A stretch of 64,000 nt of DNA from an uncultured bacterium (GTDB lineage: Bacteria; JACRDZ01), in NCBI GenBank assembly GCA_964457585.1, contig CAYWFU010000004.1, positions 13,927 to 77,926 of the forward strand, in the 5' to 3' direction. The notes under the pieces were generated by a model, which saw only the letters and a program-made list of their open reading frames with translations, ran no database searches and was not told the DNA's origin. The translations under genes and the position numbers were made by a program. Shown piece by piece: positions 7,572 through 58,547 of the stretch. The number at the start of each line of letters is the position of its first letter. Positions within the stretch are counted from its first letter, which is position 1.

Positions 7572-9833
7572 TTATTTTTCAATTATTAAACTATCATAAT
7601 GAACACTGGTTGTATCTATAACAAATGGTTCTCTTTTAGGCGAAGTATTGGAAAGAGTTTTTATCCCTTTGTTTTCATCTATAAAAGTTTGAAATTGAGT
7701 TTTTTTATCTTCAGTAACTTTATCAAAATCTTTACTATTTGCAATAATATGAGGAGTTATAAAAATCATTAAATTCGTTTTTGAATTTATTTCTTTTTTA
7801 CGTTTAAATAATATTCCAAGATACGGGATATCTCCTAAAAGCGGGATTTTGCTTTCTGCAGTACTTTTATCATTTCTTATTAAACCGCCAATAACAATTG
7901 TTTTTGAATGTTCAACAATGACAGAAGTTTTTGCTTTTCTTTTTGATGTTCTTGGAGCATCTGTAACACTAGCATCAACAACTTTACTTATTTCCTGTAA
8001 AATTTCCATACGCACCATTTTTGTCTGTTTATTTATATGCGGTGTTATTTTAAGAGTTATGCCAACATCTTTATAATCATATGTTTTAATAACATTATTT
8101 GTATCAGTAACGCGGCTATTGGTAACAAATGGTATTACATCGCTTATTACGATTTCTGCTTCTTGATTATCCATTGTAACGATTTGAGGAGTTGACAGAA
8201 TATTAAAATCAGAGTCAGCTTTGAACATATTTATTAATGCTCCAACACTTGATAATTTTGGAAGACCGGTATTTTCGTCAATCCCTTTTCCTTTCATAAG
8301 TCCTACACTGAATCCCATTCCAGGAGCTTCAGCACTTAATCCAAAATTTGTTCCGCCAAATCCAGATACTGCTCCCTCGCCGGGTTTATTTAATGAACGC
8401 CATTCAACACCTAACTGAAGGCTTTTATCCAGACTCATTTCAACAATGGCAGCTTCAACTAGAACCTGTGAGCGGGGGATATCGAGCTGGCTTATAATTT
8501 TTTTAATTGTTGCATAATTCTCAGGCGGTTCATTTATAATTAATGCATTGGTAAATTTATCAGCTACTATATTTGGTTTTATTCCAGTTCCAGGTCTTTG
8601 AGGAGGAGGGGGCTGCCCTGGTTCAGGTTTTTTTTCTACCAGAGGAACATTTGCCAGAACCTTTGCCAATTCTTCAGCATCAGAATTTTCAAGATAATAT
8701 ACGTGAATATCATCGCGGCTGATTGCCATGTCTTTATCCAGAGAATTTACAAATTCTATTATTGTTTTTGTATCTCCTTCATTAGCAAGTACAATTACTG
8801 TATTTGTTCTATCATCAGCCATAGCTTTAAGAATACGTTTATCAGCTTGAGGAATATTTACTCCTGCCTGTCTGTGCACCATCTGCATTTGCTGTTGAGC
8901 AGCCGGGTCTCCAAAAACAGATGTTATATGACCTGCAATCGTTTTTGCTGAAGCATATTTTATCTGAATAAGCGTTGTTTTAATTTCAGCGCCTGGAATA
9001 TCAAGATTCTCTATTACTTTTAACAATCTATGAATATTGGATGCTACTTCTGTTATAATCAATAAATTTGTTGGTATATAAACAGTTATATTGCTGTCTT
9101 TGGAAATTAATGGGACAATAGCTTTTTCAATATCACCAGCCTTAGCATAATTAAGGGGAATGAGTTGTGTGATAATACGGTCTTCATCAGTTATTTTGCT
9201 TGTTTCTCGCCCCACTTCGGTAGAAATATTTTGTTCCCTTGCTCTGCGTTTATTTACGACTCTTACTATTTTGTCTGATTGAACAAGACTAAAACCATTT
9301 AGTTCAAGTATTGATTCTATTACTTTGGCAGCATCTTTTCTTAGTATTTTTTTCGGAGAAATGACTGTAATGGCGCCGCGAACTCCGCCGCTTTCATCAA
9401 TTACAAAATTTTGTCCGGTTAATTCACTTAAAGTTTTAATAACTAATTTCACATCTGTATTATTAAAATCAAGCTGAATCATTTCTTCCTGCGGAGTTTT
9501 ATCCGCAGCATAAATATCAGTATTGAATTTAAGCATTATACAGTTTAATCTGGAAGTGCCAATGAATTGGCACAAATATAAACAATAAATAATTCCTATC
9601 AGAGACAGAAGATACCTCAAGGCTCTACCTCGAGGTATCTTCATTAAAAAAATATAAATAATAAATTTTTTGATATTCATAGGATCTCTATGCCTTCCTT
9701 TCATGAGTATATCTTTATCTGGAAGTGCCAAGAATACCCTGCAGTTTACTGCAGGGATGAATTGGCACAAATATAAATAATAAAATATTCCTATCAGAGA
9801 CAGAAGATACCCTGTGGCCACAGGGTTCTTCAT
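7572..9833 (-). CDS. gspD: Secretin (GspD/PilQ family). The true start is uncertain; the most upstream ATG at 9833 is almost certainly too far.
   Basis: N0-like domain (VKLVIKTLSELTGQNFVID). Secretin core (VLVEAAIVEMSLDK, STPQIVTMDNQEAEIVI). C-terminal S-domain. The 5'-most ~300 nt of the open frame is made of two copies of a hairpin repeat; a candidate start MNIKKFIIYIFL lies at 9679. Confidence 0.8.
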   Translation of the reverse strand: MKNPVATGYLLSLIGIFYYLYLCQFIPAVNCRVFLALPDKDILMKGRHRDPMNIKKFIIYIFLMKIPRGRALRYLLSLIGIIYCLYLCQFIGTSRLNCIMLKFNTDIYAADKTPQEEMIQLDFNNTDVKLVIKTLSELTGQNFVIDESGGVRGAITVISPKKILRKDAAKVIESILELNGFSLVQSDKIVRVVNKRRAREQNISTEVGRETSKITDEDRIITQLIPLNYAKAGDIEKAIVPLISKDSNITVYIPTNLLIITEVASNIHRLLKVIENLDIPGAEIKTTLIQIKYASAKTIAGHITSVFGDPAAQQQMQMVHRQAGVNIPQADKRILKAMADDRTNTVIVLANEGDTKTIIEFVNSLDKDMAISRDDIHVYYLENSDAEELAKVLANVPLVEKKPEPGQPPPPQRPGTGIKPNIVADKFTNALIINEPPENYATIKKIISQLDIPRSQVLVEAAIVEMSLDKSLQLGVEWRSLNKPGEGAVSGFGGTNFGLSAEAPGMGFSVGLMKGKGIDENTGLPKLSSVGALINMFKADSDFNILSTPQIVTMDNQEAEIVISDVIPFVTNSRVTDTNNVIKTYDYKDVGITLKITPHINKQTKMVRMEILQEISKVVDASVTDAPRTSKRKAKTSVIVEHSKTIVIGGLIRNDKSTAESKIPLLGDIPYLGILFKRKKEINSKTNLMIFITPHIIANSKDFDKVTEDKKTQFQTFIDENKGIKTLSNTSPKREPFVIDTTSVHYDSLIIEK
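9548..9647. repeat. Copy A of a nested-hairpin repeat element (short form).
   Basis: atctggaagtgccaaTGAattggcacaaatataaacaataaataattcctatcagagacagaagatacc + hairpin (agatacctc/gaggtatct) + ttcatt. The gtgccaa/ttggcac arms are palindromic. Confidence 0.8.
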
Positions 9834-53100: not shown

Positions 53101-55383
53101 AGTGCGGAGTCAAGTGAGGTATCTGGAACTCCAAATAATAATAATAATGTATTATTCTCCGACGATTTTAATGATGGAAATTATAATGGATGGACAGTAG
53201 TTGACCGCAATGACTGGAGTAATGGAGTTGGGGAGTGGAGCGTAGAGAATGGAATACTTAATCAAAAAGCAGATTGGGGTTGTATGCTATTAACCGGTGA
53301 CACTACATGGCAGAATTATACATTTGAAGCAGAGACATCAATAAAAAGTGTTTATTATAATGATTGGGATGGACCAGAATTCCTATTCCGTGTAAAAGAT
53401 AGTAAGAATTTTTATGTTTTCTACCTTCATTATCCTTTTCAACGAGCTAGAATAGTCAAATGGATTAATGGTAATGAAACTATTCTTGCAGATACAGGTA
53501 TTAATGGTCTTCCATTAAATCTCAACACTACATATAAAATTAAATGTGAGGTAAATGGTTCAGATATTAAGTGCTATATAAATGGGAATCTGATTTTATC
53601 TGCTATTGATTCCACTTTTGCGTCAGGGAAAATTGGATTTCGTACATGGAGATCGCAATCAACGTTTGATAATGTAATCGTAACTGCATACACATCTACC
53701 AATATTAACCAACCCCCACAAGTTTCCCTTTATCCTGAATATGAAACCACCTGGTTATCTGGTTCCATAAATTTTACTTTTGATACCTCTGATCCAGATG
53801 GATATATTACAAAAATAAAAATGGAATATGGAGATGGGAAATTTGATATTACACCTCCATTTATACATACATATAATTCAACAGGAAAATTTACTGCACG
53901 ACTCACTGTTTGGGATAATAATTATGATTCAAGCTGGGATGAAAGTAATATCATTGTTCCAACTGATTATGATAATGACGGACTTCCTGATACATGGGAA
54001 GTAACTTACAACCTGAGTCCTTATAATTCAACAGGTAATAACGGCTGGAATGGTGACCCTGATGGTGATGGAATAACAAACGGGGATGAGTGGAAAAATG
54101 TTTCTAAACCAAATGATCCATTAGATAATAAGCCTATTGCCAATGCTGGACTTGATCAGATTGTAAATCCTTCATTAGTCATTCTTGATGGATCAGGTAG
54201 TAGTGACCCCAATGGTGACCCACTGACATATTTATGGTACCAGACATCAGGAACTATTATTAATTTAATAAATCCAAATGCTGTTAATCCTAGCTTTATT
54301 GGTAAGAAAGCTGGTGATTATATCTTTAGTTTGATAGTTAATGATGGAAAAATTGATAGTGTTTCAGATGCAGTGATTATTACTATTAACAATATCGTTC
54401 CAACCGCAGATGCTGGGATAGATCAAACTGTTTATTCAAATACTACTGTTACTCTTAATGGCAGTGGCAGTACAGATGCAAATGGAGATAATCTAATTTA
54501 TACTTGGACACAAACTGTGGGAACAAATGTAACTTTATCGGATAACCAGAATATAAATCCAACATTTACTCCAATCTTTTCAGGTGTTTATACATTTCAG
54601 TTAATAGTTAGTGACGGTAAAGATAACAGTCTGCTTGACACAGTTAATATCATAGTAAATCAGCCGAACACCGTACCAACAGCCAATGCTGGTTCTGATC
54701 AGACTGTGAATACAGGAACATTGGTAACGCTAAATGGTTCAGGGAGTTCCGATGCTGACGGAAATTATTTGACTTACACATGGACACAAATCGCAGGAAC
54801 AAATGTGACCTTATCGAATAACCAAAGTATTAATCCAACATTTACTCCAATCTTTTCAGGTGTTTATACATTTCAGTTAATAGTAAATGACGGCACAGAT
54901 AACAGTCTCCCGGATATAGTTAATATCATATTAAATCAGCCAAATACCGTACCAACAGCTAATGCTGGGATAGATCAAACTATAAATACAGGAACAAAAG
55001 TAACCATGGATGGTTCAGGGAGTTCCGATGCTGACGGAGATTCTCTGACTTACACATGGGCACAAACAGCAGGAACAACAGTAACTTTATCAGATACCCA
55101 TAGCATGAGTCCAACATTTACTCCAATTGTTTCAGGTGTTTATACATTTCAATTAATAGTAAATGACGGCACAGATAACAGTCTCTCTGATATAGTTAAT
55201 ATCATAGTAAATCATAAAACTAGACTATGCCTTATAACCAATATTATTCCTGAAAATTCACAAGTAGGAATTATTAATAAGATGAATGATATTAAAGATA
55301 GAGTATTAATAAAAAATAGTATAAGCAAATATTTCGTTAAACTTTATTATAAAATTAGTCCATATTTGATTAATAATAAATGA
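50134..55383 (+). CDS. Giant (1749 aa) adhesin-like ORF: Big_2, FN3, LamG-like, DUF1080-like jelly-roll, PKD, thrombospondin-type DPDGDG, four ~85-aa PKD-like repeats, and a conserved ~55-aa C-terminal domain. It has no start signal of its own and is in frame with the upstream protease ORF.
   Basis: The ORF-track start is GTG at 50134 with no RBS or signal peptide. It is in the same frame as 46789-50124, separated only by TGA plus 9 nt. Domain motifs are recognisable by eye. Four repeats ANAG.DQTVN.G..VTL.GSGSSD.DGD.LTYTW.Q. Confidence 0.7.
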   Translation: MNNKTLVLLSITGNSSVVENTPLTQYTAQAFFSDGSKESVTPTTWSSSNLNVASILNSGLLTVKEVSADTEITIYANYSTKTAEMKITIINSGSSGTQDKELLVNGGFELGNNGNWVLSNSFYISTDKITYPNPYNGNGYAWVANSDGTPGINLYGNMYQSIMIPSEVTSVNLSVWVSITTKETSNVPKDVLTIAIQDSLGKLELVRALSNVNANINPKDYQQIPFNLNSYIGKTIRLNFLATTDGINPTTFRIDDVSITAKVPNPKTLISLNINGPSAVKENDSAKFSADAVFSDGSIEPVTPNWSVNSSAATISSSGVLNAGSVDTDTSVVVKADYTSGGKTNTKNVTIINSQPQVGSLQVSLSPQGAIGAQWRVDGGNYQNSGNIVYDLSVGDNHIVDFKDIPGWIKPNSQFVSIKNNQTTPISGNYTLNTYTISTYAGAGGNISPSGDVILNYGSNQTFNITPNNGYKISDVVVDGVSQGAITTYPFTNVTANRMISANFNIIINIPFPPTNISASDGTYTDKISITWGVVSNATYTIYRATSNSGTKTYIGTATGTSYEDTSALAGTTYYYWVTATDSNGTSNYSSYDTGWRSGVIPYSPTEVSASAGNGQVTINWDTASSATSYNIYWDTTSGVSKIKGTKISNVTSPYPHTGRTNGTTYYYVVTAINDYGESGESNQVNATPSTLTIPTDGLVAYYSFNGNANDGSGNSNNGTVYGATLTADRFWNANSAYSFDGVNDYIMIPSNSSLDIKEDITIAAWVKFNNLSNNNYSQILWRGDSQYAQDPYSLYVLADNVGFRRDINTGTGNDIKNITKNIGDLDINIFHLLVGSYDRTNGIMRLYIDGNMGIEEYMPGMSQYITSSMWNVIGAVDYGNWQFFNGIIDDIRIYNRALSNIEIKVLYQEVPAFPPTNVSVNTGNNQVTISWNVVTNATSYNIYWSITPGVTKANGMKISTVTSPYSNTGLINGTTYYYIVTAVNSYGESAESSEVSGTPNNNNNVLFSDDFNDGNYNGWTVVDRNDWSNGVGEWSVENGILNQKADWGCMLLTGDTTWQNYTFEAETSIKSVYYNDWDGPEFLFRVKDSKNFYVFYLHYPFQRARIVKWINGNETILADTGINGLPLNLNTTYKIKCEVNGSDIKCYINGNLILSAIDSTFASGKIGFRTWRSQSTFDNVIVTAYTSTNINQPPQVSLYPEYETTWLSGSINFTFDTSDPDGYITKIKMEYGDGKFDITPPFIHTYNSTGKFTARLTVWDNNYDSSWDESNIIVPTDYDNDGLPDTWEVTYNLSPYNSTGNNGWNGDPDGDGITNGDEWKNVSKPNDPLDNKPIANAGLDQIVNPSLVILDGSGSSDPNGDPLTYLWYQTSGTIINLINPNAVNPSFIGKKAGDYIFSLIVNDGKIDSVSDAVIITINNIVPTADAGIDQTVYSNTTVTLNGSGSTDANGDNLIYTWTQTVGTNVTLSDNQNINPTFTPIFSGVYTFQLIVSDGKDNSLLDTVNIIVNQPNTVPTANAGSDQTVNTGTLVTLNGSGSSDADGNYLTYTWTQIAGTNVTLSNNQSINPTFTPIFSGVYTFQLIVNDGTDNSLPDIVNIILNQPNTVPTANAGIDQTINTGTKVTMDGSGSSDADGDSLTYTWAQTAGTTVTLSDTHSMSPTFTPIVSGVYTFQLIVNDGTDNSLSDIVNIIVNHKTRLCLITNIIPENSQVGIINKMNDIKDRVLIKNSISKYFVKLYYKISPYLINNK

Positions 55384-55505: not shown

Positions 55506-55748
55506 TTATGCTACTTCCTGTAAATGTCTGACAGAAACCATATCTCTTCTTTCAATAGGGCGGATATCATTTTCGTTTAAAGATATTAATGCATGGGTAT
55601 CTCCACCTGCTGTAACAAATTCAACCTCATAATCATAGCTCCCATAAATTTCCACTATAGTACCAAGATCACCTTTTTGTAAATTGTACTTATCTATATC
55701 TTTTGTTAATACTACTACATCAACTAATTTATATTTCATTTTATTCAC
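55506..55748 (-). CDS. Small conserved protein (DUF4926-like, tentative).
   Basis: 80 aa. VVLTKDIDKYNLQKGDLGTIVEIYGSYDYEVEFV pattern. Its start overlaps the stop of the upstream partner by 8 nt. Confidence 0.4.
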   Translation of the reverse strand: MNKMKYKLVDVVVLTKDIDKYNLQKGDLGTIVEIYGSYDYEVEFVTAGGDTHALISLNENDIRPIERRDMVSVRHLQEVA

Positions 55749-56085
55749 CTCCTGGGATTAAAGTTATTAATCGAGGTATTTCTTCACCATTTAAAATTAT
55801 CCATACAGATGTTACTATAATATTAAAAGTATTCGGTCCTTTTAAAGGTGCGGTTATTTCATATTTTTTACCAAATGAAGAGAATTTACCTTCTTTTGCA
55901 TCGTTATTTAAAAGGTGTTGTTCTCTAATATCTTTTTCAAATATTTCCCAATTTTCATAAGTATAACCTGCTTGTTTAAAAAAATTAGCTTTATATTTTC
56001 CAACCGGATGAATAGGTGATAATATATAATCTTTTAGTTTAATCGGTTCTATTATTGCATATTCTTTATTTGGAAGTAACGGCAT
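55741..56085 (-). CDS. Hypothetical 114-aa protein, translationally coupled upstream partner of the DUF4926-like gene.
   Basis: ORF with conserved-looking core (HPVGKYKANFFKQAGYTYENWE...TSVWI). Overlapping stop and start with the next gene. Confidence 0.35.
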   Translation of the reverse strand: MPLLPNKEYAIIEPIKLKDYILSPIHPVGKYKANFFKQAGYTYENWEIFEKDIREQHLLNNDAKEGKFSSFGKKYEITAPLKGPNTFNIIVTSVWIILNGEEIPRLITLIPGGE

Positions 56086-56180: not shown

Positions 56181-56231
56181 ATAAATAAATAAATAAATAA
56201 ATAAATTAATTAATTAATTAATTAATTAATA
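56181..56231. repeat. Microsatellite (AAAT)n followed by (TTAA/TAAT)n.
   Basis: ataaataaataaataaataaataaattaattaattaattaattaattaat. Confidence 0.9.
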
Positions 56232-56436
56232 TATTTTCAATTTTATCACTTAAATGGACTGACTTCAATCAAATTTTTGAATTTGTTAGACTTTTGACTT
56301 TTATCGACAAAATTCGCAAAGCTATAATAAAAATTTTTTAAAGAATCAGAATGGATACTTGCAAATGAGGATTATAATATGGAACACTAAACAATTAAAT
56401 AATTTTTATAAAAATTTTATTCGATATAAATTTGAA

Positions 56437-56622
56437 ATATACTCAAACTAATCAGGTTTGCGAATTTAGAATGCTCATATGTGCTTCAGATTGGAACGAT
56501 CTGATTGAGCAAAACCGCAGGTGTAGTTTTAACTACATTGAGGATTTTGTGAATGAAGATCGTTTCAAGATGGAGTACAGAGGGGCGTTATAAATTCGCA
56601 AACCTGATTAGTTTGAGTATAT
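56437..56622. repeat. MITE-like element: perfect 32-bp terminal inverted repeats flanking 122 nt.
   Basis: atatactcaaactaatcaggtttgcgaattta (56437-56468) is the exact reverse complement of 56591-56622. There is an internal palindrome tgtagttttaactaca. The ATG at 56553 of the following broken gene lies inside the element. Confidence 0.85.
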
Positions 56623-58547
56623 ATACAGATGCTGATTTAACAAAAATTTATGATTTTGCTTCTGGAATACAGGAAGGAGTAAAAGTTACAATATGGAATA
56701 TAAACAAGGAATTAGTAGAAAACACAAGGTACTGGTGGAGAGCATGGTCGTATGTAAATAGTATTAATAGTGATCCGATGAATCCAGCATCATTTTTTGT
56801 AAATAAAATAAATGAACCTCCGGCAAAAGTAACATTAAGCAGTCCGCCAGAGGGATCAAGTGTATCATCACTTTTAACAAATCTTAAAGTAAATAATGCA
56901 TCTGACCCTGATAGGGATATAGTAACCTATGATTTTAATTTGAATGATGATAAAGGATTTTCATTTGAGACAACTAAAGTCCCAGAAACTGCTGGTGGTA
57001 CAACAGCTTCAAAAGACTCCTTTACTTAAGGATAATACATGGTATAAGTGGACTGCACGTGCAAGGGATGAACATGATTCAACAGGTGCATGGATGGATG
57101 AAGCATTGTTTTTTGTAAATACAGCAAATGATGCACCTGAAACGCCAAAATTAAAAAGTCCATCTGATGGCAGTGAAATAACAGTCAAAACACCTGTTTT
57201 AGAAATAAATAGCTCAATAGATTTAGATGGAAATAAAGTTTCATATTATTTTGAAATAGATACAACAAATAATTTTACAAGCAGCAAGCTAATAAAATCA
57301 AACGAACTATTTGTTACACTATGGCAGACTCCGGAATTAGATGACAATACAATCTGGTACTGGAGGGTAAGAGCAACAGATGGTGCAGCATATTCAAGCT
57401 GGATGAATGCAAAGATTTTTGTAAATACAAATAATGATGCACCAAGTATCCCAATATTAATAAGTCCAAAAGAAACAATTGTAACAATGCTTACACCGGA
57501 ATTAAAAATTCAACCTTCAATCGATATAGATAGAGACCAAATAAGTTATGAATATCAAGTGTATGATACAACAAAAAATTTAGTAACAAGCGCAGATAAT
57601 AAAGGAATAAGCTGGATAATAGTAAATACTTCTGGCAGATTCAGGCAAGAGATGAACATGGTCAGGGAAGTGGTTGGTCTAATATCGCATGGTTTATAGT
57701 AAATCAGGGTAATGATGCGCCTACAGCACCAAAACCAGCCAGACCAGAAAATAACAGTACTATTGGTACTCAAACTCCAGATCTTGAGATAATTAATTCA
57801 ACCGATTTAGATGGTGACAATCTGACATATTATTTTGAAATTTTTGATAATGACCAATTTTTGGGTGAAGCAAAAGCTAAAATAGAACATTTCCCGGAAA
57901 ATCCATCAGGTAAAACAACATGGAACGTGGATACAATTTTACCAAGTGATAAGAAATACTATTGGAGGGCAAAAGCACATGATGGGAAAGAATATAGTGG
58001 GTGGTCAGAGACTTTTAGTTTTACAATAGCAGGAATAATGCCCGATATAATACCACCACAGGTTTCATCAGTAAGTCCAGCAAATAGTGCTGCTAATATT
58101 GCAATTAGATCAAGCTTAACAGCAACATTCAATGAATTGATGTATGAATCAACTATTAATATAGCTACATTCATACTTACAAGCCCATCAGGGCAAATTT
58201 TTGGTACAGTAAGATACAGCTGGACAACAGCCACATTTACTCCATCAGGTAATCTTGCATATTCTACGATTTATACTGCTAAAATAACAACTGAAGCAAA
58301 AGATTTAGCCGGGAATAAATTGGCAAGTAATTATGTGTGGAGCTTTACTACAGAATCTAAACCCAAAAAAGGCCCATGTATTATAACTAATGCTATTCCT
58401 TCAAATTCACGAACAGGGATTATTAAGAAGATGAACGATTTTAAAGATAGAGTATTAATTAAAAATAGTATATCAGCATATTTCGTTGAATTTTATTATA
58501 AAATTAGTCCAAAGTTAGTTAATAATATTTGCATCCGATTGCAATAG
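56553..58547 (+). pseudogene. Disrupted repeat-rich surface protein gene: ~95-aa tandem repeats plus an SbsA-type Ig-like domain plus the same C-terminal domain as the giant ORF. It is split by at least two frameshifts and is 5'-truncated at the MITE-like element.
   Basis: Three ORFs (56553-57029, 56944-57699, 57861-58547) carry the same repeat (W..RA.D..G..S.W......FVNT.NDAP..P.L.SP.DGS...TP.L.INNS.D.DGD...Y.FEI). The frame changes near 56990-57020 and 57615. The reading continues in the third frame from ~57640. No signal peptide. C-terminal CIITNAIPSNSRTGIIKKMNDFKDRVLIKNSISAYFVEFYYKISPKLVNN. Confidence 0.55.

What the first reader, a model, noticed from the sequence alone, without database searches (positions are those of the whole stretch)
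56437..56622. MITE-like element with perfect 32-bp terminal inverted repeats, inserted at the 5' end of a repeat-protein gene
atatactcaaactaatcaggtttgcgaattta at 56437-56468 is the exact reverse complement of 56591-56622. The 122-nt spacer has its own palindrome (tgtagttttaactaca). The only available ATG (56553) of the downstream repeat-protein gene lies inside the element, and that gene lacks a signal peptide. This is consistent with the element having replaced the gene's original 5' end. Perfect long TIRs imply recent mobility or a cognate transposase elsewhere.
Basis: seen in the sequence. Interest (0 to 1): 0.55.

Follow-up and report, generated by a model that had tools for sequence, protein, structure and literature searches.

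The report
Foldback transposon carrying conserved RNA-like hairpin
The 186-base inverted repeat is real and belongs to a previously unlisted family of small hairpin-shaped mobile elements found in very different bacteria, whose conserved inner part looks selected to fold as a single strand, most likely as RNA.

Summary
56437-56468 is the exact reverse complement of 56591-56622, and the whole 186 nt is one foldback. The element is not unique. A conserved-core scan and a covariance model found more than 20 distinct homologues in metagenomes and one in a Gammaproteobacteria MAG. The window itself looks like Ca. Desantisbacteria. The stems differ between copies but stay paired: 94.5% of cells pair, and 56 of 69 pairs show compensatory changes. 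The apex (GAUUGAGCAAAA...GGUGUAG...CUAC...GAUUGA) is nearly invariant. Relatives with the other end type (GGG...GAAATAAC) are multicopy within contigs. They are flanked by direct TAA/TAA or TTA/TTA in 18 of 20 clean cases, which is a MITE signature. The window copy has TA...TA flanks, which cannot be told apart from an extension of the inverted repeat. Only one copy lies in the 64 kb, and no transposase was found. A second, shorter MITE with the GGG...GAAATAAC ends and a TTA duplication lies at 13108-13213. Mismatches are strongly strand-specific (G:U 160 vs A:C 17, plus conserved tandem G.A loops), regardless of flank orientation. This points to a single-stranded, probably RNA, role for the inner module. 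The downstream "gene" is a frameshifted, 5'-truncated pseudogene that ends at the element.

The parts
56437..56468 (+). Left terminal inverted repeat (32 nt), the outer stem of the foldback. This part is specific to the end type ('type A', ends TA|TAC...).
   Evidence: Exact reverse complement of 56591-56622. It aligns to model positions 1-~32 of R1. In the family this outer helix shows little strand asymmetry (G:U 20 vs A:C 8).
56591..56622 (+). Right terminal inverted repeat (32 nt).
   Evidence: The junction with the right flank is reproduced in Logan contig L001.
56469..56590 (+). Conserved inner hairpin module (122 nt), the part shared by all family members of both end types.
   Evidence: Alignments A1, A2 and A5. 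Invariant blocks are GATTGAGCAAAA, GGTGTAG, CTAC and GA(T/A)TGA. In the inner helices G:U outnumbers A:C 140 to 9 across 21 members.
56503..56508 (+). GAUUGA, the 5' half of the symmetric 6x6 internal loop (G.A, A.G, U.U, U.U/A, G.A, A.G).
   Evidence: Invariant in 21/21 members (A5 columns 72-77). Left unpaired in the minimum-energy fold. Mismatch list.
56551..56556 (+). GAAUGA, the 3' half of the symmetric loop (GAUUGA in most members). The U-to-A change here creates ATG 56553.
   Evidence: A5 columns 195-200. Alignment (window and L111 have GAATGA).
56489..56490 (+). GA of a conserved tandem G.A/A.G 2x2 loop; its partner is 56569-56570.
   Evidence: 56489-56570 G.A, 56490-56569 A.G. A5 columns 58-59 / 213-214 are G,A in 19-20 (5' side) and 17-19 (3' side) of 21 members.
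56520..56539 (+). Apical stem-loop GGUGUAG-UUUUAA-CUACAUU (the 'inner palindrome' of the finding).
   Evidence: Helix 6 of A5 is 98.6% paired with conserved G:U pairs.
56540..56555 (+). GAGGA (56540-56544) followed by ATG (56553-56555): a Shine-Dalgarno-like sequence and start codon of ORF 56553-57029. Both are buried in the 3' arm of the hairpin.
   Evidence: Sequence, ORF list, fold. GAGGAUUUUG is family consensus, but the ATG is not.
56623..58547 (+). Decayed, 5'-truncated gene for an Ig-repeat surface protein, in three frame fragments (56553-57029, 56944-57699, 57861-58547).
   Evidence: ORFs and translations. Ig_Rha78A_N and Big_5 domains. The last 50 aa are 76% identical to the C-terminus of the 1749-aa protein. 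The same frame breaks occur in Logan contig L001.
13108..13213 (.). Second, shorter MITE in the same window. It has perfect GGGCTTGCGACGAAATAACTGTAAC inverted repeats of the 'type B' kind, is flanked by TTA/TTA, and lacks the conserved core.
   Evidence: R1 hit at 60 bits. Sequence. Exact repeat. It folds equally well on both strands, -52.7 / -51.0.

Best explanation
[quoted passage not shown] Family members are built from two modules. The first is an outer inverted repeat of about 20-32 bp, which differs between lineages. It comes in at least two end types. Type A, as here, has ends TA|C(T/C)(C/T)... with TA on both sides. Type B has ends GGG...GAAATAAC with a 3-bp TAA/TTA target duplication, as produced by IS5 / PIF-Harbinger-type DDE transposases. 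The second module is an inner hairpin of about 120 nt that is conserved across phyla. The outer module is what a transposase supplied in trans would recognise as double-stranded DNA (inferred). The inner module carries the marks of selection on one particular strand folded on itself. These marks are many G:U but few A:C pairs, conserved tandem G.A loops, and an invariant symmetric GAUUGA/GAUUGA loop. I take this to mean it acts as an RNA rod when a copy is transcribed in the sense direction (inferred, about 55-60%). The long perfect outer stem would be an RNase III substrate that could release it; the window encodes RNase III (speculative). At this locus the copy sits at the breakpoint of a 5'-truncated, frameshifted surface-protein pseudogene. 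By chance it supplies that remnant's only start codon, and it probably has no adaptive role there. What is shown: family membership, covariation, strand asymmetry, and copy number and duplications in relatives. What is inferred: mobility of this particular copy, the transposase class, and the RNA role.
For: Exact 32-nt inverted repeat and a 186-nt foldback. A homologue in a Gammaproteobacteria MAG (L059) has the same ends and compensated stems. About 30 metagenome loci hold the element, and 21 distinct full-length members were aligned by model R1, with the window copy scoring 138 bits. Of all cells, 94.5% are paired, and 56 of 69 pairs show changes on both sides. None of 500 shuffles reached the observed values, and slid controls gave 36-46% paired. 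There are several copies per contig in L081, L121, L109, L129 and L093, between ordinary chromosomal genes. All copies are intergenic. Direct TWA/TWA flanks occur in 18 of 20 clean type-B cases against 2 inverted (read by eye). A type-B MITE with a TTA duplication lies in the same window. For strand specificity, G:U outnumbers A:C 160 to 17 on the structural alignment, and 106 to 23 on an independent arm-against-arm alignment, where G.A outnumbers C.U 66 to 10. Every member folds 5-58 kcal/mol better on the model strand, most by 20-35. The element's GC skew is always positive, while the flank skew splits 14:14. The coreless MITE at 13108 shows no such asymmetry. The asymmetry is concentrated in the inner module (140:9) rather than the outer repeat (20:8). 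RNase III is encoded at 39395-40204.
Against: For this copy, a TA or ATAT duplication cannot be told apart from extension of the inverted repeat. There is no second copy in the window, and the repeat is absent from the two large collections. No autonomous element or transposase with matching ends was found anywhere. Copy number of type A in any one genome is unknown. For the RNA role, there is no orientation bias relative to neighbouring ORFs (12:12 upstream, 10:13 downstream). No convincing promoter or terminator was found, and no expression data exist. The strand asymmetry persists with DNA energy parameters (-60.4 vs -46.4), so a single-stranded DNA stage would fit equally well. Members are related by descent, so cell counts overstate the number of independent events.
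Confidence: 0.7

Rival explanations
1. A purely DNA-level MITE. Under this view the foldback and its conserved centre serve transposition, for example as transposase or host-factor binding sites, or as a hairpin on one DNA strand during replication or transposition. No RNA is involved.
For: Target duplications, multicopy distribution and lineage-specific inverted repeats. No orientation bias to genes and no promoter. The asymmetry is also seen with DNA parameters. G.T and sheared G.A are the least destabilising mismatches in DNA as well (established knowledge). The two GATTGA motifs are direct repeats about 48 bp apart on duplex DNA and could be protein sites.
Against: DDE cut-and-paste transposition of the IS5/PIF type acts on duplex DNA and gives no reason for one strand to be favoured. 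The asymmetry is weakest in the very part a transposase should bind (20:8 against 140:9). It is independent of local GC skew, the proxy used for replication direction (14:14).
Confidence: 0.3
2. A resident, non-mobile structured non-coding RNA gene (6S-like or Y-RNA-like rod) that only resembles a transposon because it is a long hairpin.
For: The length of about 186 nt, the rod shape, strong covariation and strand specificity.
Against: There are several copies per contig with different flanks, and near-identical copies in different contexts. Most copies have direct TWA duplications. The same terminal repeats carry other cargos, including a non-hairpin one in this window. No Rfam family matches at gathering score, and only plant miRNA hairpin shapes appear below it. 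No conserved neighbouring gene was found.
Confidence: 0.08
3. A gene-specific regulatory hairpin, 5' leader or terminator of the downstream repeat-protein gene.
For: The position immediately 5' of an ORF, with a Shine-Dalgarno-like GAGGA and the ATG sequestered in the stem.
Against: Homologues sit next to unrelated genes in unrelated organisms. The downstream ORF is a broken pseudogene. There is no T-run terminator. The ATG is a lineage-specific change in a conserved loop.
Confidence: 0.02
4. An assembly or amplification artefact (a foldback chimera).
For: Short-read contigs break inside the repeat.
Against: Both junctions are reproduced in two independent run assemblies. Homologous elements with the same architecture occur in dozens of independent assemblies. 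The imperfect, conserved interior is not what a chimera gives.
Confidence: 0.01

Closest known systems
Bacterial foldback MITEs that are transcribed and act as RNA hairpins: Correia/NEMIS elements of Neisseria, ERIC of enterobacteria, RUP of pneumococcus, bcr1 of the Bacillus cereus group (own knowledge; table in PMC3184786)
   Same: They are small (about 100-190 bp), non-coding and fold over their whole length. They are dispersed in intergenic regions with a short TA or T-rich duplication. Correia hairpins in transcripts are cut by RNase III, and bcr1 shows G:U-type RNA signatures (own knowledge).
   Different: Those families are confined to one genus or family and are conserved mainly at their ends. 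Here the centre is the conserved part, and it is shared between a Desantisbacteria-like genome, a Gammaproteobacteria MAG and metagenome contigs of 33-63% GC. It is combined with at least two different end types. No sequence similarity to these families could be tested with the tools; there were no hits in E. coli genomes, plasmids or phages.
Tourist (PIF/Harbinger, TAA/TTA duplication) and Stowaway (Tc1/mariner, TA duplication) MITEs of plants, some of which became microRNA precursors
   Same: They are foldback MITEs with the same two classes of target duplication, and the hairpin is transcribed into structured RNA. The only Rfam hits are sub-threshold matches to plant MITE-like miRNA precursors (MIR6140, 59.8 bits against a gathering score of 140).
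   Different: Those are eukaryotic. The Rfam score comes from the hairpin shape and is far below threshold. No Dicer-type pathway exists in bacteria.
IS5-family insertion sequences whose subgroups make 2-4-bp TA/TNA duplications, IS1031/IS427/ISL2 groups (own knowledge of ISfinder classes)
   Same: Type-B relatives have GG-starting inverted repeats and a TWA duplication. The terminal motif GGGTYYGCGAATAAA resembles the IS5 end GGAAGGTGCGAATAAG, recalled from memory.
   Different: No transposase gene with these ends was found. The window copy has different ends (TA|TACTCAAAC...). The resemblance to the IS5 end rests on memory and was not tested.
QMITE1/QMITE2 of Coxiella burnetii (PMC5896051) and Chunjie of Geobacter uraniireducens (PMC3184786)
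   Same: They are MITEs of 150-400 bp that fold into very stable hairpins. The QMITEs give rise to small RNAs. QMITE1 has a conserved core with variable ends.
   Different: QMITE1 is 300-400 bp with 2-4-bp variable repeats and is unique to Coxiella. QMITE2 has 7-11-bp repeats and a GTAG REP. Chunjie has 9-bp repeats and 21-bp inverted repeats.

Membership tests
[quoted passage not shown] | Small (under about 500 bp) and without coding capacity | tested here: met
   186 bp. Only spurious ORFs cross it, and its frame-2 peptide has no homologue.
[quoted passage not shown] | Terminal inverted repeats | tested here: met
   32/32 nt perfect.
[quoted passage not shown] | Target-site duplication flanking the element | tested here: inconclusive
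   The window copy has TA (or ATAT) on both sides, which is self-complementary and so uninformative. Type-B relatives have 18 direct against 2 inverted TWA pairs.
[quoted passage not shown] | Multiple dispersed copies in one genome | tested here: inconclusive
   There is one copy in the 64-kb window, and the rest of this genome is not available. Relatives have 2-4 copies per 12-13-kb contig.
[quoted passage not shown] | An autonomous element or transposase with matching ends | tested here: not met
   None was found among 27 window ORFs or in the multicopy contigs. Only solo ends were found. A search of whole genomes was not possible.
IS5 / PIF-Harbinger-mobilised MITE | 3-bp TNA (TAA/TTA) duplication and GG-starting inverted repeats | tested here: not met
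   Not met by the window copy, which has ends TA|TACTC. It is met by type-B relatives and by the second MITE at 13108-13213.
Tc1/mariner / IS630-mobilised MITE | TA target duplication | tested here: inconclusive
   All five type-A copies can be read as TA + C(T/C)(C/T)... + TA. However, TA is part of the palindrome, and no empty site is available.
REP / REPIN (RAYT-mobilised) | A 20-40-nt GTAG-headed palindrome or an inverted doublet of about 100 nt, with no target duplication and a RAYT gene in the genome | tested here: not met
   The element is 186 nt. GTAG lies inside the apical stem, not as an unpaired head. Duplications are present in relatives. No RAYT was seen.
Known structured RNA families (Rfam 15, including 6S, Y RNA, SRP and omega/bridge RNAs) | Match at the family's gathering score | tested here: not met
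   There were no hits at gathering score in the window or L059. E-value scans gave only plant miRNA hairpin shapes.
Structured RNA in general | Covariation that supports pairing on one strand only | tested here: met
   56 of 69 pairs are compensated and 94.5% of cells are paired. G:U outnumbers A:C 160 to 17. The same pattern would also arise from single-stranded DNA.
Structured RNA in general | Evidence of transcription (promoter, terminator or expression data) | not testable with these tools
   The consensus scan found nothing above the shuffle expectation. No transcriptome data were available.

The most novel reading that the evidence does not exclude
The inner ~120-nt module is a genuine, horizontally spread structured RNA: a rod with tandem G.A motifs at 10-15-nt spacing and an invariant symmetric GAUUGA/GAUUGA loop. 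It rides on, or has been repeatedly captured by, foldback transposons with different ends and target specificities. The perfect outer stem serves as an RNase III processing site, so that any sense read-through transcript releases the RNA. Its function would be protein binding or regulation, serving either the element or the host.
Probability: 0.35. Interest if true: 0.7.

Novelty: new variant of a known kind. Interest (0 to 1): 0.5.

Why it matters
Bacterial MITEs are usually lineage-restricted and conserved at their ends. Here the conserved part is an internal hairpin, shared between at least two phylum-level lineages and many environmental contigs. It is joined to interchangeable transposon ends and shows a clear single-strand (RNA-like) selection signature. 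If the RNA reading holds, this is an unlisted class of mobile structured RNA. It would also give a handle on how non-coding RNAs spread by transposition in uncultivated bacteria. At the least, the family is a useful repeat annotation for MAGs. It explains contig breaks and spurious ORF starts such as ATG 56553.

Tried and rejected
1. Exact scans for the repeat 21-mer in genome contigs and metagenome contigs gave 0 hits. The source genome is therefore not in those collections, and copy number in this genome could not be measured.
2. A core-pattern scan and a type-B repeat scan of viral contigs gave 0 hits.
3. BLAST of the element against plasmids, phages and E. coli genomes gave no match.
4. 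A protein search with the open frame through the element, meant to find miscalled ORFs on other copies, found no homologue.
5. Full-text searches for the core sequence returned only unrelated primers. Literature on QMITE, Chunjie and Nezha showed features that do not match.
6. A conserved neighbouring gene was sought. The only recurrent flank family was response-regulator receiver domains, which I judged a coincidence of a very common domain.
7. Orientation bias relative to genes and to local GC skew was tested, and there is none. This removes a simple co-transcription or replication-strand explanation for the strand asymmetry.
8. An IHF-site reading of AATCAGATCGTTC was considered (12 of 13 matches to WATCARNNNNTTR from memory). 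The TT is not conserved in the family, so I dropped it.
9. Outward-facing promoter-like hexamers TTCGCA-N17-TATAT(A/T) occur at both ends, but the scan found fewer sites than in shuffles, so this was not used.
10. I considered that type A is a type-B element with 17 bp added outside. The window's AGGTTTGCGAATTTA matches 11 of 15 positions of the type-B terminus, but arm lengths do not fit without a 14-nt deletion. This is left as a possibility only.

Full report
**Observation.**
The 32-mer at 56437-56468 is the exact reverse complement of 56591-56622. It occurs nowhere else in the window, and no shuffle produced a match. The repeat is larger than the finding says: the arms 56437-56528 and 56531-56622 (92 nt each) are 76% complementary. 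The whole 186 nt is therefore one foldback. The 'inner palindrome' is its tip (GGTGTAG 56520-56526 / CTACATT 56533-56539). As RNA the + strand folds at -108.6 kcal/mol (z = -17), but the - strand only at -75.3. The difference arises because 8 of the 10 transition mismatches are G:T on the + strand. In addition, 10 of the 12 other mismatches are G.A/A.G, three of them tandem. Two independent Logan assemblies reproduce the left and right junctions and break inside the repeats (L002 ends at 56467, L001 starts at 56596). A 31-mer graph is expected to break at an inverted repeat of 32 nt.

**Context.**
The window is a 30% GC chromosome segment carrying fatty-acid synthesis genes, RNase III, lpxB and an msbA-like gene. 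Its LpxB is 68% identical to that of a Candidatus Desantisbacteria MAG, which is the best hit among GTDB species genomes.

Upstream of the element lie:
- a DUF6883/DUF4926 gene pair on the minus strand;
- an (ATAA)n/(TTAA)n microsatellite.

Downstream, the 'repeat-protein gene' is three frame fragments (56553-57029, 56944-57699, 57861-58547) with Ig_Rha78A_N-like and Big_5 domains. Its C-terminal 50 aa are 76% identical to the tail of the neighbouring 1749-aa protein. The same frame breaks are in the Logan contig.

The first fragment starts in the middle of a repeat unit. (Y)TDADLTKIYDF, directly after the element, corresponds to SDPDRDIVTYDF of the next unit. The left flank has stops in all frames and no similarity to the gene. 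The element therefore sits exactly at the 5' truncation point of a pseudogene. It arises from a U-to-A change in a family-conserved GAUUGA loop. Together with the GAGGA at 56540-56544, it is buried in the stem.

**The element is a member of a family.**
A local nhmmer search of the lpxB loci fetched to identify the organism hit L059, a Gammaproteobacteria MAG, over the full length. L059 has the same termini (GATATACTCA...TGAGTATATA), a near-identical centre, and stems that differ but remain complementary. It shows the same strand preference (-114.8 vs -81.7). Scanning metagenome contigs for the core GATTGAGCAAAA-N3-7-GGTGTAG gave 66 loci, about 30 of which carry the whole hairpin. A covariance model built from 11 of them (A3, R1) scores the window element at 138 bits and aligns 21 distinct full-length members.

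On that alignment:
- 94.5% of cells are standard pairs.
- 56 of 69 pairs have changes on both sides.
- No shuffle reaches the observed values, and slid controls give 36-46% pairing.

Rfam has nothing at gathering score. Below it there are only plant miRNA-precursor hairpin shapes. Plasmids, phages, E. coli genomes and viral contigs have no match. In 1.14 Mb taken from 75 other species genomes, only L059 carries it.

**Anatomy.**
Conservation is highest in the centre. GAUUGAGCAAAA, GGUGUAG, CUAC and GAUUGA are invariant or nearly so. The outer 20-32 bp differ between lineages.

Two end types exist:
- **Type A** (window, L059, L113, L099, L091): ends read TA|C(T/C)(C/T)..., with TA on both sides.
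- **Type B** (most metagenome copies): ends read GGG...GC...GAAATAAC, flanked by TAA or TTA.

In type B the middle base of the two flanking triplets decides between a duplication (same base) and repeat extension (complementary base). Reading by eye, 18 copies are direct, 2 are inverted and 6 have one side mutated. This is a 3-bp TWA target duplication, the hallmark of IS5-group and PIF/Harbinger DDE transposases (own knowledge).

Type-B copies are multicopy. There are four model hits in the 13-kb L081, and several in L121, L109, L129 and L093. They lie between ordinary chromosomal genes, and all are intergenic. The same type-B ends also carry other cargos: a second hairpin apex in L093/L121/L129 and a non-palindromic AT-rich core. 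One such short MITE is in this very window at 13108-13213. It has perfect GGGCTTGCGACGAAATAACTGTAAC repeats and a TTA/TTA duplication. This genome has therefore hosted this transposon superfamily. No transposase was found in the window or in the multicopy contigs, and only solo ends were seen.

**Strand specificity.**
- Across the 21 members, G:U cells outnumber A:C cells 160 to 17 on the structural alignment.
- On an alignment-independent arm-against-arm comparison the ratio is 106 to 23. There G.A outnumbers C.U 66 to 10, and G.G outnumbers C.C 22 to 4.
- Interior loops are conserved as 5'-GA/5'-GA tandems (A5 columns 47-48/224-225 and 58-59/213-214). There is also the symmetric GAUUGA/GAUUGA loop, at columns 72-77/195-200.
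- Every member folds 5-58 kcal/mol better on the same strand, most by 20-35 kcal/mol.
- The element's GC skew is always positive on that strand, while the flanking skew is positive in 14 and negative in 14. Orientation relative to neighbouring ORFs is random. The asymmetry is therefore a property of the element, not of local mutation bias.
- The asymmetry is concentrated in the inner module (140:9) and weak in the outer repeat (20:8).
- The coreless MITE at 13108 shows no asymmetry at all.
- DNA energy parameters preserve the asymmetry (-60.4 vs -46.4). Energetics therefore cannot separate RNA from single-stranded DNA.

**Interpretation.**
The best reading is a foldback MITE with two functional layers:
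1. An outer duplex-DNA inverted repeat for a transposase supplied in trans.
2. A conserved inner module selected as a folded single strand.

I favour RNA for the inner module for two reasons. DDE transposition gives no reason for a strand preference. G:U pairs together with tandem sheared G.A are typical RNA helix irregularities. Against this, the lack of orientation bias and of a recognisable promoter leaves the source of transcripts open. A long perfect outer stem would be an RNase III substrate (the enzyme is encoded at 39395-40204), which would free the inner rod from any sense read-through transcript. This step is speculative.

For the locus itself, the element marks the breakpoint of a dead gene. 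A plausible history is insertion into the gene followed by a rearrangement at the element's left end, but this is inferred only.

**Comparison and novelty.**
Functionally the closest known elements are transcribed foldback MITEs: Correia, ERIC, RUP, bcr1 and QMITE (PMC3184786, PMC5896051, own knowledge). Architecturally the closest are plant Tourist/Stowaway MITEs. Three things differ here:
- the centre rather than the ends is conserved;
- that centre is shared across very different hosts (a Desantisbacteria-like genome, a Gammaproteobacteria MAG, and contigs of 33-63% GC);
- it is combined with at least two end and target types.

I could not compare sequences with ISfinder or with published MITE consensus sequences. 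'Undescribed' therefore means absent from Rfam 15 and from the literature I could search. I rate it a new variant of a known kind, of moderate interest.

Noticed in passing
window 13108-13213: A second MITE of about 106 bp lies between the convergent ORFs 11026-13095 (+) and 13214-14962 (-). It has perfect 25-nt (37 nt at 92%) inverted repeats GGGCTTGCGACGAAATAACTGTAAC, a TTA/TTA duplication and an AT-rich non-palindromic core. It has the same end type as the type-B relatives of the finding.
   Followed up: yes
L093 3958-4124, 2907-3076, 1730-1908; L121 171-335; L129 2289-2456: A second family of ~165-180-nt foldback MITEs has the same type-B ends and TWA duplications but a different conserved apex (...AAAAATAG..GTGTAG..CTAC..CTATTTTT...). 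Its tip again has a GTAG/CTAC stem.
   Followed up: partly
window 63479-63612: A 14-nt direct repeat AAATCATAGGAGAT, which includes the ribosome-binding site of the next gene, flanks a ~104-nt (118-nt period) AT-rich insert. The insert contains an 82-nt imperfect palindrome (TTAGAAGTTATAAAG...CTTTATAACTTCTAA-like). It may be another small insertion with a long duplication.
   Followed up: partly
window 55333-55383 and 58398-58547: The 1749-aa PKD/fn3/LamG surface protein and the pseudogene fragment share a ~50-aa C-terminal tail at 76% identity (...ITN.IP.NS..GII.KMND.KDRVLIKNSIS.YFV..YYKISP.L.NN). It has no Pfam match and may be a lineage-specific sorting or anchoring signal.
   Followed up: partly
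window 55506-56085 (-) and 46043-46655 (+): Two small putative toxin-antitoxin pairs flank the big surface-protein genes: DUF6883 + DUF4926 on the minus strand, and a 67-aa ORF + PIN-domain protein on the plus strand.
   Followed up: partly
window 56181-56236: A compound microsatellite (ATAA)n(TTAA)n of about 13 copies lies 200 nt upstream of the element.
   Followed up: no
window 56944-57029 and about 57630-57860: Two frame disruptions occur in the Ig-repeat gene remnant and are reproduced in an independent assembly (L001). They appear to be a real pseudogene rather than assembly error.
   Followed up: partly
L121 10529-11656 (-) and about 10160-10186: A PDDEXK_2 ('PD-(D/E)XK nuclease family transposase', Rpn-like) gene lies about 340 nt from a solo type-B end. 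This may be a coincidence.
   Followed up: no
L111 1309-1382: A tRNA gene lies 48 nt downstream of a family member (74.6 bits to RF00005).
   Followed up: no
L119 214-427, L110 2235-2472, L125 708-849, L140 about 7880-8100, L080/L102: Family members carry secondary insertions in the loop or the 3' arm (extra GC-rich hairpins of about 30-50 nt) while keeping the base of the foldback.
   Followed up: no
window 43507-46042: A 2.5-kb stretch of 26% GC has only short ORFs (at most 108 aa).
   Followed up: no
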